This document shows positions 22,849-27,092 of a stretch of DNA of 64,000 nucleotides, one piece after another; the first letter of the stretch is position 1, and the number at the start of each line of letters is the position of its first letter. The stretch comes from the human T2T-CHM13v2.0 reference genome, Homo sapiens. The notes under the pieces are model-generated. The model ran no database searches. It had not been told where the DNA came from and saw only the letters and a program-made list of their open reading frames with translations. The stretch is taken from assembly GCF_009914755.1 (NCBI RefSeq), contig NC_060928.1, one strand, 5' to 3'. Position numbers and translations under genes: made by a program.

Positions 22849-23154
22849 TTTATTTATTTATTTTTATTTTTGAAGACAAGGTCTTGCTGTCACCCAGGCT
22901 GGAGTACAGTGGTATCATCACACCTTACTGCAGCCTCAACCTCCCAGGCTCAAGCAATCCACCTGCCTCAGCCTTTTGAGAAGCTGGGACTACAGGCATG
23001 CATCACTATGCCGGGCTAATTTTTTTTCATGTTTTATAGAGATGGGGTCTCACTATGTTGCCCAGGCTGGTCTCAAACTCCTGGGCTCAAGTAATCCTCT
23101 CACTTCAGGTTCCCAAAGTGCTGGGATTACAGATGTGAACCACCATGCCTGACC
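22849..23154 (-). mobile_element. AluJ full length
   Basis: (TTTA)n tail and AluJ-type ctcctgggctcaagtaatcctc. TSD tgtaca(g/a)aca(g/a)gttta on both sides. Confidence 0.95.
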
Positions 23155-23685
23155 TGTACAAACAAGTTTAGAGAATAATATACAAATATCCTTGCCCCAC
23201 TACATAGAATAAATTAATATTAATAATTTATTAAATTTGTTTTCTAGATTTAGATAAATGAAATAAATATTCCTAATAAAGTTCAAGTCCCATTTATAAT
23301 TTTTTCCTGGTCTCATCTTCATCTCCACAGACAAGCACTATCATAAATTGGTGTATTTTTTTAGTCTATATTTTGGTAATAAGAAAAAGAATAATTAGGA
23401 GGAAGAGAATGAGAAGGATAAAGGAACAATTACTTTTTTACATTTGTTGAGCACCTACTAATAACAGGGACTTTCTAAGTGCTTTTCACATATTACCTAA
23501 TATAATTATCAAAACAACTGGTTTTGTACACAAGAAAACTAAGGCACAGAGAGCTTATATAAATTTTATAAAGTCACATACATAGTAAGTGCTGGAACCA
23601 GAATATAAACCCAGCCATTGTACTGCATATACAAGTATATGTGTCCATTAACAGTGTTTTTAGTATTGTTTTCTATGTTTTAATA
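23052..23685 (+). repeat. left arm of ~634-bp near-perfect inverted repeat (partial AluJ + L1M + MIR)
   Basis: Reverse complement of 26126-26758. By eye only one substitution and one 1-bp indel, both in the Alu part. Confidence 0.97.
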
Positions 23686-23873
23686 TAGAGGTGTAAAGTG
23701 GGAAATCAGGGGTCTCAAGCCTTCAGAGCTGAGAGTCCCGAACAGAGATTTACCCACATATTTATTAACAACAAACCAGTCATTAGCATTGTTTCTATAG
23801 ATATTAAATTAACTAAAAGTATCCCTTATGGGAAATGAAGGGATGGACCGAATTAAAGGAATAGGTTGGGTTA
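23682..23873 (-). mobile_element. MER9 (HERV-K9/HML-3) LTR, middle piece
   Basis: Reverse complement reads ...aacctattcctttaattcggtccatcccttc...aataaatatgtgggtaaatctctgttcgg...cccactttacacctctatatt, as in MER9. Confidence 0.9.
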
Positions 23874-23933
23874 TGTCTATAATTCCTCTAGTGCCACTGG
23901 GTTAGGGTCTCCCCAACCGAGCTGGTCTTGGCA
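23874..23933 (+). mobile_element. MER9 LTR, 3' terminal piece (opposite orientation to the other two pieces)
   Basis: tgtctataattcctctagtgccactgggttagggtctccccaaccgagctggtcttggca is the MER9 3' end. Confidence 0.9.
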
Positions 23934-24269
23934 AACTTGCTCAGTTATTCAATCAATTACCAATCCAGAGGTGTTTCTGTCAAGGCACTTTGTAACTGTG
24001 ATTCAATTCTATAATCAGATTATTTTAAATTAATATTAGTAAGATTATCCTAGATAATGTGGATAAGACTGTTTAGAGCAGAACTAAGATTTACCTGAAA
24101 AAAAAATTCTGCCTGTGAACTACAGTTTTAACCTTTGCTCAAGAATTGCAACTGGCCTTTTCTGAAGGCCTGCCCTGTGAATTTCAAACTTGGCTCATCA
24201 ACCCTCATAATCATGTCTCTTAATATATTATCCTGCTGAATCTGTTTCTCTGGTGAAACTTGAGTTACA
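23934..24269 (+). mobile_element. MLT2 LTR body (host of the MER9 insertion); its 5' ~25 bp lie at 26998-27022 on the minus strand
   Basis: aacttg...agattatcctagataatgtgg...aattctgcctgtgaac...tctgtttctctggtgaaacttgagttaca. Confidence 0.75.
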
Positions 24270-24454
24270 TAGGTGGGAAGGAATTATTCTTAGTCGATCC
24301 TTGTAGAGCTGATATCCTCTACTTAAGTGACTTGACTCAAAGCTTTTTTTCTCTCAATTTTATTTCTTACATTTTGAGGTCTACAAGGAATATGTTTAGA
24401 TTATATATTTATGCATAACAAAATACTGAAAAATGTAATGCCTTACAACTAATC

Positions 24455-24683
24455 TTGATCACTTGAGGTCAAGAGTTCAAGACCAGCCTGGCCAACATGG
24501 CAAAACTTCATCTCTACTAAAAATACAAAAATTAGCAAAGTATGGTGGTGGGCGCCTGTAATCCCAGCTACTGGGAAGGTTGATTCAGGAGAATCGCTTG
24601 AACCCAGGAGGTGGAAGTTACAGTGAGCTGAGATCACACCATTGCACTCCAGCCTGGGTGACAGAGCAAAACAAAACAAAACA
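24455..24683 (+). mobile_element. 5'-truncated AluS within an old MLT1 LTR (~24390-25190, minus)
   Basis: Starts at gatcacttgaggtcaagagttc and ends in a (CAAAA)n tail. Confidence 0.92.
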
Positions 24684-25374
24684 GTAATTTTATTTTGATC
24701 AGGATTTTATGGGCCAGAAATTCCTGAAGGGCTGAGCTGGTTATTCTGTCTCTGATACATTTACTGTCAGCAGAGGTGTCTGGGGCTGGCAAATCTACTA
24801 CCAAGGTGGCTTCTCCACTTACGTAATTGGTACCTTGGTGCTCCATCATCTACCTCTTCCCAAAGGGTATCTCAGTCTGCAGTTCTCCTTGTGTGGACTG
24901 GGCTTCCGATGACATAGTCGTCTCAGGGTAGCTGTATTTCTTATATGGCTACAGCCATTAATAGGGAGGCAGAAAAAGCTGTCAAAGTTTTTAAGCCTGT
25001 GCCAGAAAATGGCACACAGTGACTTCTGCCATTTGTTGTTGGGCAAAGCAGTCTCAAGGCCCATCCAAACAGATTCAAGAGGGTGGAAAAACAATCTCCA
25101 CATCTTCATTGGGAGTAGCAAAGTGACATCAGAAGAGCAAATGGGACTAAATGATATTTTTAGTGACATTTTTGGACAATGTAATTTTACATGTCTACTT
25201 TTTCACATTTACTAGGTACCCAGCTTTTGAACTCAGTTTTTCATTCATTTCTGCTTTTAAACTAATTATCTCTCATAACATGCTATGTACAGTTATCAAA
25301 AAACAATTCAGACTACTAAAAAAATGGCTTTTCCATTTCTTCCTCATGAACTACTTACTCTAAATTGGCAATTT

Positions 25375-26190
25375 TTAAGTCAAGAAAAAGATAAGCTATT
25401 CACTAAGTGGTATTGGGACCATTGGCTCTTCATAGGAAAATTGATAGAATTAAATTTAATTATTTCATACCACACACATAAATCAATTAATTTTACAATT
25501 AATTAGTGGAAAAAAAAGGAAAAGTGACTCTACCAAAAGTAGAAGGGGAAGGGTTTTTAAAAAGTACAAATTATAAGAGTTATGGATTAAACTCTATTAA
25601 AATTCACAAAATTTATGTGAAACGTAAACAAAATGATACATGATTTAAAAAAACCTGTGAAAAACTGAAAGGATATATTTTTAACAAACAAATAATTTAT
25701 ATATGGAATTTGTTGAAATGCTTATATAAAGATGAAAAAGAGACTAACAATTCAAAAGATAATTAAGAAAAATACAAACCTAGTCAAGTTTTAGGGGAAA
25801 AAACCCAAAAGATTCCTATACTCTAATAACAAAGGAAATAATCATTAAAAAAAATTCACACATATCTGAATGAAAAAAATGTCTGACAGTATAGTTTTTG
25901 AAAGAATCTGAAACAAGCTGCAAATTCTAAAATCTTCTGGAGAAAATATAGTTTCATAAGGTAACAATTTACAGTCTTACTGAAAATAGAGCTGTATGTT
26001 CACTAGATCTAGCAATTTTCTATTACATATAATACTTTTTTGGAAACATTTACAAAGATATGCCTGTTTTGACAAAATAAATAATACATGTACCTGAAAA
26101 ATAAACCATTGAATGAAAAAAAAAGTATTAAAACATAGAAAACAATACTAAAAACACTGTTAATGGACACATATACTTGTATATGCAGTA
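25375..26190 (+). mobile_element. old L1M(E) 3' region
   Basis: agaaaaagataagctattcactaagtggtattgggaccattgg resembles the L1 ORF2 3' end. A-rich and continuous into the right inverted-repeat arm. Confidence 0.65.
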
Positions 26191-26758
26191 CAATGGCTGG
26201 GTTTATATTCTGGTTCCAGCACTTACTATGTATGTGACTTTATAAAATTTATATAAGCTCTCTGTGCCTTAGTTTTCTTGTGTACAAAACCAGTTGTTTT
26301 GATAATTATATTAGGTAATATGTGAAAAGCACTTAGAAAGTCCCTGTTATTAGTAGGTGCTCAACAAATGTAAAAAAGTAATTGTTCCTTTATCCTTCTC
26401 ATTCTCTTCCTCCTAATTATTCTTTTTCTTATTACCAAAATATAGACTAAAAAAATACACCAATTTATGATAGTGCTTGTCTGTGGAGATGAAGATGAGA
26501 CCAGGAAAAAATTATAAATGGGACTTGAACTTTATTAGGAATATTTATTTCATTTATCTAAATCTAGAAAACAAATTTAATAAATTATTAATATTAATTT
26601 ATTCTATGTAGTGGGGCAAGGATATTTGTATATTATTCTCTAAACTTGTTTGTACAGGTCAGGCATGGTGGTTCACATCTGTAATCCCAGCACTTTGGGA
26701 ACCTGAAGTGAGAGGATTACTTGAGCCCAAGAGTTTGAGACCAGCCTGGCAACATAGT
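26126..26758 (-). repeat. right arm of the inverted repeat (contains MIR ~26195-26372 and a truncated Alu left monomer ~26657-26758)
   Basis: Reverse complement of 23052-23685. Confidence 0.97.
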
Positions 26759-26997
26759 TAGGTTGGGTTAGTTAACTGCTGCAGGAGCATGTCCTTAAGG
26801 CACAGATCGCTCATGCTAGTTTGTAGCTTAAGAATGGCTTTAAGCGGTTTTCTGCCCTAAGCGGGCCAGGTGTTCCTTGCCCTCATTCTGGTAAACCCAC
26901 AACCTTCCAGCGTGGACGTTAGGGCCATTATGAACATGTTATACAGTGCTGCAGAGATTTTGTTTATGGCCAGTTTTGGGGGGCCTTGCTCTCAATA
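26759..26997 (-). mobile_element. MER9 LTR, 5' piece
   Basis: Reverse complement tattgagagcaaggccccccaaaactggccataaacaaaatctctgcagcactg... is the MER9 start. Followed by CAAGTT (TSD). Confidence 0.9.
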
Positions 26998-27092
26998 CAA
27001 GTTGACATAAAACACCATCAAACCACATAAGTCTCCATTTCAGATGACCTCAAGATAAACACATCACTCAGGTTTGTCGTGGAGAAAGCCAT

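What the first reader, a model, noticed from the sequence alone, without database searches (positions are those of the whole stretch)
23052..27022. Young complex rearrangement: inversion plus inverted duplication with three junctions, reconstructable from a shattered MER9 LTR
Seen: D (23052-23685) recurs inverted at 26126-26758. One MER9 LTR is in three pieces: M2 (middle, minus, ~23682-23873), M3 (3' end, PLUS, 23874-23933) and M1 (5' part, minus, 26759-26997). Inferred ancestral order: D - X - M3 - M2 - M1, where X-M3 is the reverse complement of 23874-26125. This restores one continuous L1M after D and one intact LTR. The present order is D - M2 - inv(X-M3) - inv(D) - M1. Junction 1 (23682-23685) uses AATA, shared by the D end and the recalled MER9 consensus. 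Junction 2 (23873/4) loses ~10 bp of the LTR's TG run. Junction 3 (26758/9) re-enters the LTR 12 bp early. Multiple jumps with microhomology and strand reversal within a few kb are the established signature of FoSTeS/MMBIR template switching; applying that model here is inference. I cannot tell whether this variant is already catalogued.
Basis: partly seen in the sequence, partly recalled or inferred. Interest (0 to 1): 0.85.

Follow-up and report, generated by a model that had tools for sequence, protein, structure and literature searches.

The report
Small complex inverted-duplication rearrangement, chr4p13
A 3.9-kb stretch of gene-poor human chromosome 4 was reshuffled after an old retroviral LTR landed there, leaving a near-perfect 634-bp inverted duplicate and a flipped 2.4-kb spacer; it is a clear example of a common, already described kind of structural variant.

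Summary
D (23052-23685) recurs inverted at 26126-26758. The copies differ by one substitution and one 1-nt deletion, and D has no third copy in the CHM13 genome.

The three LTR pieces tile one element in 21 of 22 other genomic loci. The 60-nt 3' piece lies on the opposite strand. Ten nt are lost and 12 nt are duplicated.

New support for the inferred ancestral order:
- A perfect 6-bp target-site duplication (AACTTG) flanks the outer ends of the now-separated LTR termini.
- A full-length Alu spans the left breakpoint, so the left D copy is the native one.

- Only junction 1 has microhomology (AATA). Junctions 2 and 3 are blunt.
- I found no evidence for the "continuous L1M".
- NAHR between the new arms could flip the spacer, so the CHM13 orientation need not be the primary product.

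Both arm differences are derived in the new copy and lie within 30 nt of junction 3. This fits error-prone replicative synthesis.

Best reading: one replication-based template-switching event, less than about 9 My old. Inverted duplications of this size and spacing are the commonest class of sequenced human inversion calls (Sudmant 2015).

The allele's state in GRCh38, other humans and apes could not be checked. The region is intergenic and interest is low to moderate.

The parts
22870..23160 (-). Full-length old Alu. It contains the outer end of D and the ancestral breakpoint at 23051/23052.
   Evidence: It aligns over 291 nt to itself and over 112 nt to the truncated right-arm piece 26651-26761. 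Other Alus in the window match across the breakpoint position (I2/I3). This shows that the left D copy sits in its native context.
23052..23685 (+). D, the source copy of the duplicated segment (634 nt). It holds the Alu 5' part, unique sequence and a ~100-nt old repeat at 23505-23618.
23682..23685 (.). Junction 1 (23685/23686). AATA is shared by the D end and the LTR position just before M2, giving 4-nt microhomology.
   Evidence: 21 of 22 relatives have AATA there. Microhomology count is 4/0.
23686..23873 (-). M2, the middle LTR piece (188 nt), on the same strand as M1.
   Evidence: 94-96% identical to 39 other genomic copies over query positions 1-188
23862..23873 (.). 12-mer TAGGTTGGGTTA, first copy. 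Junction 2 (23873/23874) follows it and is blunt.
   Evidence: Identical to 26759-26770. It carries a T that 0 of 22 relatives have. Microhomology is 0/0.
23874..23933 (+). M3, the 3'-terminal 60 nt of the LTR, inverted relative to M2 and M1.
   Evidence: Matches the opposite strand in 22 of 22 loci. It ends in ...GGCA like the relatives.
23934..23939 (+). Target-site duplication AACTTG on the 3' side of the LTR.
   Evidence: Equals the reverse complement of 26998-27003.
23934..26125 (.). X, a 2192-nt single-copy spacer, now inverted relative to the ancestral order. It contains an Alu (about 24453-24700) and an old repeat (about 23938-24271). An A9 run at 26116-24 abuts the right arm.
   Evidence: Unique in the genome apart from old repeats
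26126..26758 (-). D', the inverted new copy (633 nt), truncated inside the Alu. It carries both arm differences: A at 26730, and a 1-nt deletion between 26749 and 26750.
   Evidence: The derived state is judged against other Alus. Both differences lie within 30 nt of junction 3.
26759..26997 (-). M1, the 5' LTR piece (239 nt). Its first 12 nt (26759-26770) repeat 23862-23873. Junction 3 (26758/26759) is blunt.
   Evidence: 91-93% identical to 39 other genomic copies
26998..27003 (-). Target-site duplication on the 5' side of the LTR (CAAGTT on the + strand, which is AACTTG in LTR sense).

Best explanation
After an old Alu and a ~489-bp retroviral solo LTR were already in place, one replication-based event with three template switches (FoSTeS/MMBIR type) rearranged about 3.3 kb of intergenic DNA.

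The ancestral order was: Alu/D - X - [AACTTG] LTR (3' end, middle, 5' end, on the minus strand) [AACTTG].

The event made three novel junctions:
- J1: the D end joined to the LTR middle piece, using AATA.
- J2: the end of the middle piece joined bluntly to the inverted LTR 3' piece.
- J3: an inverted copy of D, ending inside the Alu, joined bluntly back into the LTR 12 nt before the point where synthesis had left it.

The net result is a 633-bp inverted duplicate of D, a 12-bp duplication, a 10-bp loss, and X plus the LTR 3' end lying inverted between the two D arms.

What is shown: the structure, its derived polarity, the junction sequences and the high arm identity.

What is inferred: that it was a single event, that it was replicative, and that the spacer orientation in CHM13 is primary. 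Alternatively the event only inserted 188 + 634 nt of inverted copy into the LTR, and the 2.44-kb spacer was flipped later by NAHR between the new arms. Both isomers carry the same three junctions.

The locus has no annotated gene, and the rearrangement is most likely neutral.
For: 1. Structure and uniqueness of the arms.
2. The LTR pieces tile single elements. Strand, 14-nt gap and 12-nt overlap are as described in 21 of 22 loci.
3. The piece lengths add up to 489 nt, the length of relative L022.
4. A 6/6 TSD, AACTTG, lies at the outer flanks of M3 and M1. The family shows perfect 6-bp TSDs in 11 of 20 distinct copies.
5. The left D copy is embedded in a full-length Alu, whereas the right copy is cut inside it. 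So the right copy is the new one.
6. Both copies of the 12-mer share a T seen in 0 of 22 relatives. They are therefore copies of each other.
7. Breakpoints come in close pairs, 10 nt and 12 nt apart, as expected when synthesis leaves and re-enters a template.
8. The 634-nt duplication needs DNA synthesis or a second chromatid.
9. Both arm differences are in the new copy, 9 and 29 nt from J3. Under uniform placement P = 0.002-0.005. The deletion is absent from 6 of 6 other Alus. The substitution differs from 4 of 6 other Alus. Replicative repair is reported as error-prone near junctions (PMC4352052, passages).
10. J1 has 4-nt microhomology. This is within the 2-5 bp named for MMBIR (PMC2621351, abstract).
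11. Sudmant et al. 2015 report that 54% of sequenced inversion calls are inverted duplications under 1 kb inserted within 5 kb of the source. They attribute these to single replicative events because no intermediates were found (PMC4617611, passages).
Against: - Two of the three junctions are blunt. That fits end-joining as well as, or better than, microhomology-primed switching.
- No outgroup or second human haplotype could be examined. A single-event origin, the absence of intermediates and the age all rest on internal evidence only.
- The clustering of two differences near J3 is a small sample. It could also be an edge effect of gene conversion between the arms.
- Polarity of the substitution is weak, since 2 of 6 other Alus also carry A.
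Confidence: 0.6

Rival explanations
1. Stepwise origin. First, a fold-back or 'inverted dup' event copied D-X-LTR 3' end in inverted orientation into the LTR. This left a 2.9-kb near-palindrome with a ~202-nt spacer and made J2 and J3. Later, a separate 2262-bp deletion with AATA microhomology (J1) removed most of the left arm and stabilised the structure.
For: - J1 differs in kind from J2 and J3: 4-nt microhomology against blunt ends.
- Large near-palindromes are unstable and lose symmetry by deletion (established knowledge, recalled).
- Fold-back inverted duplications with short spacers are documented (PMC3907307, search listing and start of abstract only).
Against: - The deletion would have to end within 10 nt of the inner boundary of the left arm by coincidence or by hairpin-tip processing.
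- Sudmant et al. found no intermediates for comparable sites (PMC4617611, passages).
- It needs two events where one suffices.
Confidence: 0.17
2. Break-and-ligate origin. Several double-strand breaks occurred at the D/X boundary, in the LTR's CA-rich run and at the 12-nt site. Fragments, including one from a sister chromatid, were rejoined by end-joining. Fill-in of a 12-nt staggered break made the short duplication.
For: - Two blunt junctions.
- A 10-nt loss and a 12-nt duplication are typical of end processing.
- Two ancestral breakpoints lie at simple runs: T9 next to D, and the CA-rich run in the LTR.
Against: - The new copy runs uninterrupted from the LTR 3' end through X into 633 nt of D, while the retained D is broken exactly at D/X. 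So two copies of the region are needed.
- End-joining does not explain the errors clustered at J3.
Confidence: 0.12
3. The inverted repeat is old and kept identical by gene conversion, so the rearrangement is not young.
For: The two differences sit at the very edge of the arms, where conversion tracts seldom reach.
Against: - Both differences are derived in one arm only.
- No difference lies at the inner edge.
- The duplication must in any case postdate the LTR, because D' is inserted into it.
Confidence: 0.07
4. An assembly or cell-line artefact of CHM13.
For: None from my calls. It cannot be excluded without reads.
Against: - The whole structure (3.9 kb, with 634-nt arms) is shorter than the long reads used for T2T assemblies (established knowledge, recalled).
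- The junctions show orderly features that a mis-join would not produce: a TSD-consistent LTR, a 12-nt templated duplication, and arm differences.
Confidence: 0.03

Closest known systems
'Inverted Dup' and 'complex' inversion classes of the 1000 Genomes phase 3 SV map (Sudmant et al. 2015, PMC4617611; passages read)
   Same: A duplicated stretch under 1 kb (here 634 nt) is inserted in inverted orientation within 5 kb of its source (here 2.44 kb away). There are multiple breakpoints. The authors attribute such sites to a single, possibly replicative, event.
   Different: There is an extra junction. A 188-nt LTR piece keeps its orientation while its neighbours are inverted, and the 2.25-kb spacer is inverted. 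This puts the site in their rarer 'more highly complex' group (5%), or it is an Inverted Dup followed by a flip of the spacer.
FoSTeS/MMBIR complex genomic rearrangements (Hastings, Ira, Lupski 2009, PMC2621351, abstract read; Beck et al. 2015, PMC4352052, passages)
   Same: Duplication, inversion and small loss are mixed in cis. Switches go to nearby templates on both strands. One junction has 4-nt microhomology. Sequence errors lie next to a junction.
   Different: The scale is kilobases rather than tens to hundreds of kb. Two junctions are blunt. No pre-existing low-copy repeat is involved. It is a germline polymorphism or fixed difference rather than a disease allele.
DUP-TRP/INV-DUP rearrangements (PMC4352052, passages; PMC11293582, search listing and start of abstract only)
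   Same: An inverted segment lies between duplicated segments and is formed by iterative template switches.
   Different: Those events need a pre-existing inverted repeat and produce a triplication. Here the inverted repeat is the product, and nothing is triplicated.
Fold-back inverted duplications (Hermetz et al. 2014, PMC3907307; search listing and start of abstract only)
   Same: An inverted duplicate is separated from its source by a short single-copy spacer. This matches the 202-nt spacer in the stepwise model.
   Different: Those are megabase-scale and joined to terminal deletions. This one is interstitial and 3 kb long.
Inverted-repeat-mediated (NAHR) polymorphic inversions (Aguado et al. 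2014, PMC3961182, passages; Moreira-Pinhal et al. 2026, PMC13629690, abstract and methods section)
   Same: The present structure, 634-nt arms 99.7% identical around 2.44 kb, is the substrate type that toggles recurrently. Catalogued IR-flanked candidates go down to inversions of 197 bp.
   Different: Here the repeat itself was created by the rearrangement. The junctions lie at the arm ends, not inside pre-existing homology. Toggling at this locus is a prediction and has not been observed.

Membership tests
FoSTeS/MMBIR-type complex rearrangement | Several breakpoint junctions in cis within a small region, mixing duplication, inversion and loss | tested here: met
   There are three junctions within 3.1 kb, a 633-nt and a 12-nt duplication, a 10-nt loss, and an inverted 2.25-kb segment.
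FoSTeS/MMBIR-type complex rearrangement | Microhomology of about 2-5 bp at the junctions (PMC2621351 abstract) | tested here: inconclusive
   J1 has 4 nt, J2 has 0 and J3 has 0. The lost LTR bases at J1 and J2 were taken from relatives, not from this copy.
FoSTeS/MMBIR-type complex rearrangement | Point changes or small indels acquired next to junctions (error-prone synthesis) | tested here: met
   The only two arm differences lie 9 and 29 nt from J3 in the new copy. The sample is two changes, and the polarity of the substitution is weak.
FoSTeS/MMBIR-type complex rearrangement | Single mutational event (no intermediates in relatives or the population) | not testable with these tools
   No other human or ape assembly is reachable. 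The catalogue look-ups found nothing.
Inverted Dup class (Sudmant 2015) | A duplicated stretch under 1 kb inserted inverted within 5 kb of its source | tested here: met
   634 nt, 2440 nt apart.
Inverted Dup class (Sudmant 2015) | Otherwise collinear flanks (two novel junctions only) | tested here: not met
   There is a third junction, and the spacer is inverted relative to the LTR-defined ancestral order.
Simple NAHR inversion between pre-existing inverted repeats | Repeats predate the inversion, and breakpoints lie inside the homology | tested here: not met
   The right arm is inserted into the LTR and truncates an Alu. The novel junctions lie at the arm ends.
   No repeat library is available. 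I only show membership in one LTR family with more than 1100 first-look candidates in CHM13, of which 40 were scored per search.
   Relatives start TGTTGGG and end GGCA, and 11 of 20 distinct copies have a perfect 6-bp TSD. The window copy starts TA (one change from TG), ends CA and is flanked by AACTTG 6/6.

The most novel reading that the evidence does not exclude
This is a human-lineage, possibly still polymorphic, one-step template-switching event. Its error-prone synthesis is directly readable as two derived errors in the last 30 nt before the final switch. The event created a new 634-bp near-perfect inverted repeat, so the locus would now be a newborn inversion-toggling site with two isomers that share all three junctions.
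Probability: 0.3. Interest if true: 0.45.

Novelty: new member of a known kind. Interest (0 to 1): 0.3.

Why it matters
The locus has no gene or known function, so its value is as an example.

A split LTR with an intact target-site duplication, together with an Alu spanning one breakpoint, lets the ancestral order, the polarity and every junction be read from a single haplotype without an outgroup. That makes it a clean worked example of how small complex inversions with inverted duplications arise.

It also shows how such an event can create the inverted repeat that later NAHR inversions use.

If pangenome data showed both spacer orientations, or errors confined to the new copy, the locus would add a well-resolved case to the evidence for error-prone replicative repair in the human germline. 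It would not change current understanding.

Tried and rejected
1. L1M continuity.
- A whole-genome BLAST-level search with D (23150-23685) found only a ~100-nt old repeat at 23505-23618.
- The first 826 nt of X next to D are unique but for one weak 100-nt hit. 24710-25300 has 3 weak hits.
- 23934-24450 holds an old repeat (38 hits at 64-78% identity) that ends at about 23938-23942. In all 8 fetched relatives the match stops at the same point, and none of them continues into 26998-27900. So this repeat offers no continuity test across the LTR.
- A Pfam scan of 17 of the 42 open stretches of at least 35 aa, mostly the longest, gave no L1 domain. The best E-values were 0.19-0.2, below the cut-offs.
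- Conclusion: the L1M claim is neither supported nor needed.

2. Whether the locus is catalogued.
- My GRCh38 and hg19 positions come from an offset based on recalled KCTD8 coordinates, so these searches could miss the locus by a few kb.
- Nothing was found in the held supplements of Sudmant 2015 (1 file), PMC13721702 (2 files), Chaisson 2019 (3 files) or Giner-Delgado 2019 (12 of 18 files).
- In Logsdon 2025 the only matches were on other chromosomes or were unrelated numbers. One of its two files was cut when stored and the other was unreadable.
- The supplement of the ape T2T paper was unreadable.
- Porubsky 2022, Ebert 2021 and Kidd 2010 are not held.
- The main texts of PMC4576756, PMC6044046, PMC6748972 and PMC3961182 have no 'chr4' hit.
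- A full-text search on coordinate prefixes returned only unrelated papers.
- I therefore cannot say whether the variant is in print or in dbVar, gnomAD or InvFEST.

3. A scan of bacterial and archaeal genome contigs for a 30-nt D-end word, hoping for a contaminating human contig from another person, gave 0 matches.

5. Models rejected:
- A simple inverted-duplication-flanked inversion with two junctions, because M2 and M3 lie on opposite strands.
- The staggered-break inversion model, because the 188-nt piece is in direct rather than inverted orientation.
- Alu-Alu recombination, because there is no Alu at the LTR acceptor site.

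
Full report
**Observation**

The inverted repeat is real. The repeat finder reports arms 23062-23685 and 26126-26749, 624 nt long and 2440 nt apart. 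A gapped alignment extends them to 23052-23685 against 26758-26126. The only differences are one mismatch (23081 C against A at 26730) and one 1-nt indel (23061 has no partner). A search of the whole CHM13 assembly with 23150-23685 finds these two copies and nothing else of any length. The other 7 hits are 72-79% matches to a ~100-nt old repeat at 23505-23618.

**The LTR**

Searching the genome with 23686-23940 and with 26759-27010 hit a large family, with 1167 and 1155 first-look candidates, of which 40 were scored in each search. I compared the three pieces with 22 fetched loci: L010-L020 and L022-L032. L020 and L028 are the same copy, and L021 is the window itself and was left out.

- In all 22 loci, 23874-23933 matches the strand opposite to 23686-23873 and lies 10-17 nt upstream of it (14 nt in 17 of 22).
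- In 21 of 22 loci, 26759-26999 follows on the same strand as the middle piece and overlaps it by 12 nt. L014 has no match for that piece.
- In 21 of 22 loci, the short stretch that the relatives carry between the two pieces ends in AATA. D ends in AATA too.
- So 4 nt are shared at junction 1, and 10 nt of a CA-rich run are missing.
- The 12-mer at 23862-23873 is repeated exactly at 26759-26770. Both copies carry a T that none of the 22 relatives has, so they are copies of each other.

**New tests of the ancestral order**

1. Target-site duplication. The family makes 6-bp TSDs, perfect in 11 of 20 distinct copies and at least 5/6 in 12. In the window, the 6 nt outside the 3' terminus (23934-23939, AACTTG) equal the reverse complement of the 6 nt outside the 5' terminus (26998-27003). 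These two ends are now 3 kb apart and on opposite strands, yet they were made by one integration. This reading takes the LTR to start at 26997, with TA where the relatives have TG. It aligns without indels to L022, whereas the alternative start needs a 2-nt insertion and gives no TSD.
2. LTR length. The pieces add up to 60 + 10 + 4 + 188 + 239 - 12 = 489 nt, the length of relative L022. Like the window copy, L022 lacks a 22-nt internal tandem duplication that most copies carry.
3. Which D is native. The left D copy lies inside a full-length Alu (22870-23160) that runs across the breakpoint at 23051/23052. The right copy's Alu is cut at 26758 and abuts the LTR. The left copy is native and the right copy is new.
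4. Preserved adjacencies. The native D-X adjacency survives at 26125/26126, and the native X-LTR adjacency survives at 23933/23934. I could not support it in any case: no L1-like homology by BLAST-level search or by Pfam on 17 of 42 open stretches.

**Junctions**

I used the native continuations still present in the window, and the relatives for the lost bases. Microhomology is 4 nt at J1, 0 at J2 and 0 at J3.

Ancestral breakpoints lie next to a T9 run (D/X), in the LTR's CA-rich run, and in the Alu. They come in close pairs:
- The two in the CA-rich run are 10 nt apart.
- The two at the 12-mer are 12 nt apart.

**Arm differences**

Both differences lie in the Alu part, 9 and 29 nt from J3. 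Under uniform placement the chance that both fall within 30 nt of a given end is 0.002, or 0.005 for either end.

I compared them with 6 other Alus in the window that cover the sites. None has the right arm's 1-nt deletion. Four have the left arm's G and two have the right arm's A. Both differences are therefore probably derived in the new copy.

This fits error-prone synthesis at a template switch, as described for BIR/MMBIR (PMC4352052, passages). An edge effect of gene conversion is the alternative.

**Age**

There is one substitution in 633 aligned nt. Using recalled rates of 0.5-1 x 10^-9 per site per year, this gives about 0.8-1.6 My, with a 95% range of 0.02-8.8 My. If both differences arose with the event, the bound is 2.9-5.8 My. 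'Young' is supported unless gene conversion has homogenised the arms.

**Mechanism**

The 633-nt duplicate runs uninterrupted from the LTR 3' end through X into D, while the retained D is broken exactly at D/X. Two copies of the region were therefore involved, which means replication or a sister chromatid.

One event with three template switches explains the paired breakpoints, the small gain and loss, and the errors at J3. I rate this at 0.6.

Two histories within this model cannot be told apart here.
- H2: normal synthesis through D - X - LTR 3' end. Then the 188 nt are copied backwards, followed by an AATA-guided jump to the D end, 634 nt copied backwards, and a return. This gives the other isomer. 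It needs only 822 nt of aberrant synthesis and matches the commonest 1000 Genomes class. A later NAHR event between the new arms would then flip the 2.44-kb spacer to the CHM13 state.

Both isomers have identical junctions, so only reads longer than an arm can tell them apart.

The rivals are a stepwise history (inverted duplication, then a 2262-bp microhomology deletion), end-joining of fragments involving a sister chromatid, an old repeat homogenised by gene conversion, and an artefact.

**Comparison with what is known**

Sudmant et al. 2015 sequenced inversion calls and found the following (PMC4617611, passages):
- Only 20% were simple.
- 54% were inverted duplications of under 1 kb inserted within 5 kb of the source.
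- 5% were more complex.
- They found no intermediates and favoured replication errors.

The MMBIR model names complexity, 2-5 bp microhomology and low-processivity synthesis with multiple switches (PMC2621351, abstract). Inverted repeats are known to drive recurrent inversions (PMC3961182, passages; PMC13629690, abstract and methods). This locus is a well-resolved member of that kind, not a new kind.

**What remains open**

I could not reach GRCh38, other human haplotypes or ape genomes. The catalogue look-ups I could make found nothing for this locus. Several key call sets are not held. My GRCh38 and hg19 positions rest on a recalled offset. Whether the allele is private, polymorphic or fixed, and whether it is already catalogued, is therefore unknown. 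Supplements that I could not see may list it: Porubsky 2022, Ebert 2021, Moreira-Pinhal 2026, and the ape T2T tables.

**Verdict**

The mechanism is plausible but inferred. The site is ordinary in kind, intergenic and probably neutral. Interest 0.3.

Noticed in passing
window 26976-26997, compared with L010-L032: Most copies of this LTR family (17 of the 20 distinct copies examined are 503-522 nt long, mostly 512-513) carry a 22-nt tandem duplication near the 5' end. The window copy, L022 and L031 (489-490 nt) lack it. This is probably a subfamily marker.
   Followed up: partly
window 27095-27138: A perfect tandem duplication of a 22-nt unit (GGAAGAGTTAGCAAAGAAAGAA, two copies) lies about 100 nt to the right of the LTR, outside the rearrangement.
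   Followed up: no
window about 23938-24271: An old interspersed repeat matches 38 other places in the genome at 64-78% identity. In all 8 fetched relatives the match stops at the same end of this repeat, and that end lies within a few nt of the LTR integration site. The family was not identified.
   Followed up: partly
window 23505-23618 (and its mirror in the right arm): A ~100-nt ancient repeat inside D matches 7 other loci at 72-79% identity. It is the only repetitive part of D besides the Alu.
   Followed up: no
window 22870-23160 and 24453-24700: The Alu at the left edge and the Alu inside the spacer are now in inverted orientation to each other (75-76% complementary). In the inferred ancestral order they were direct, so the rearrangement created an inverted Alu pair 1.3 kb apart.
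   Followed up: no
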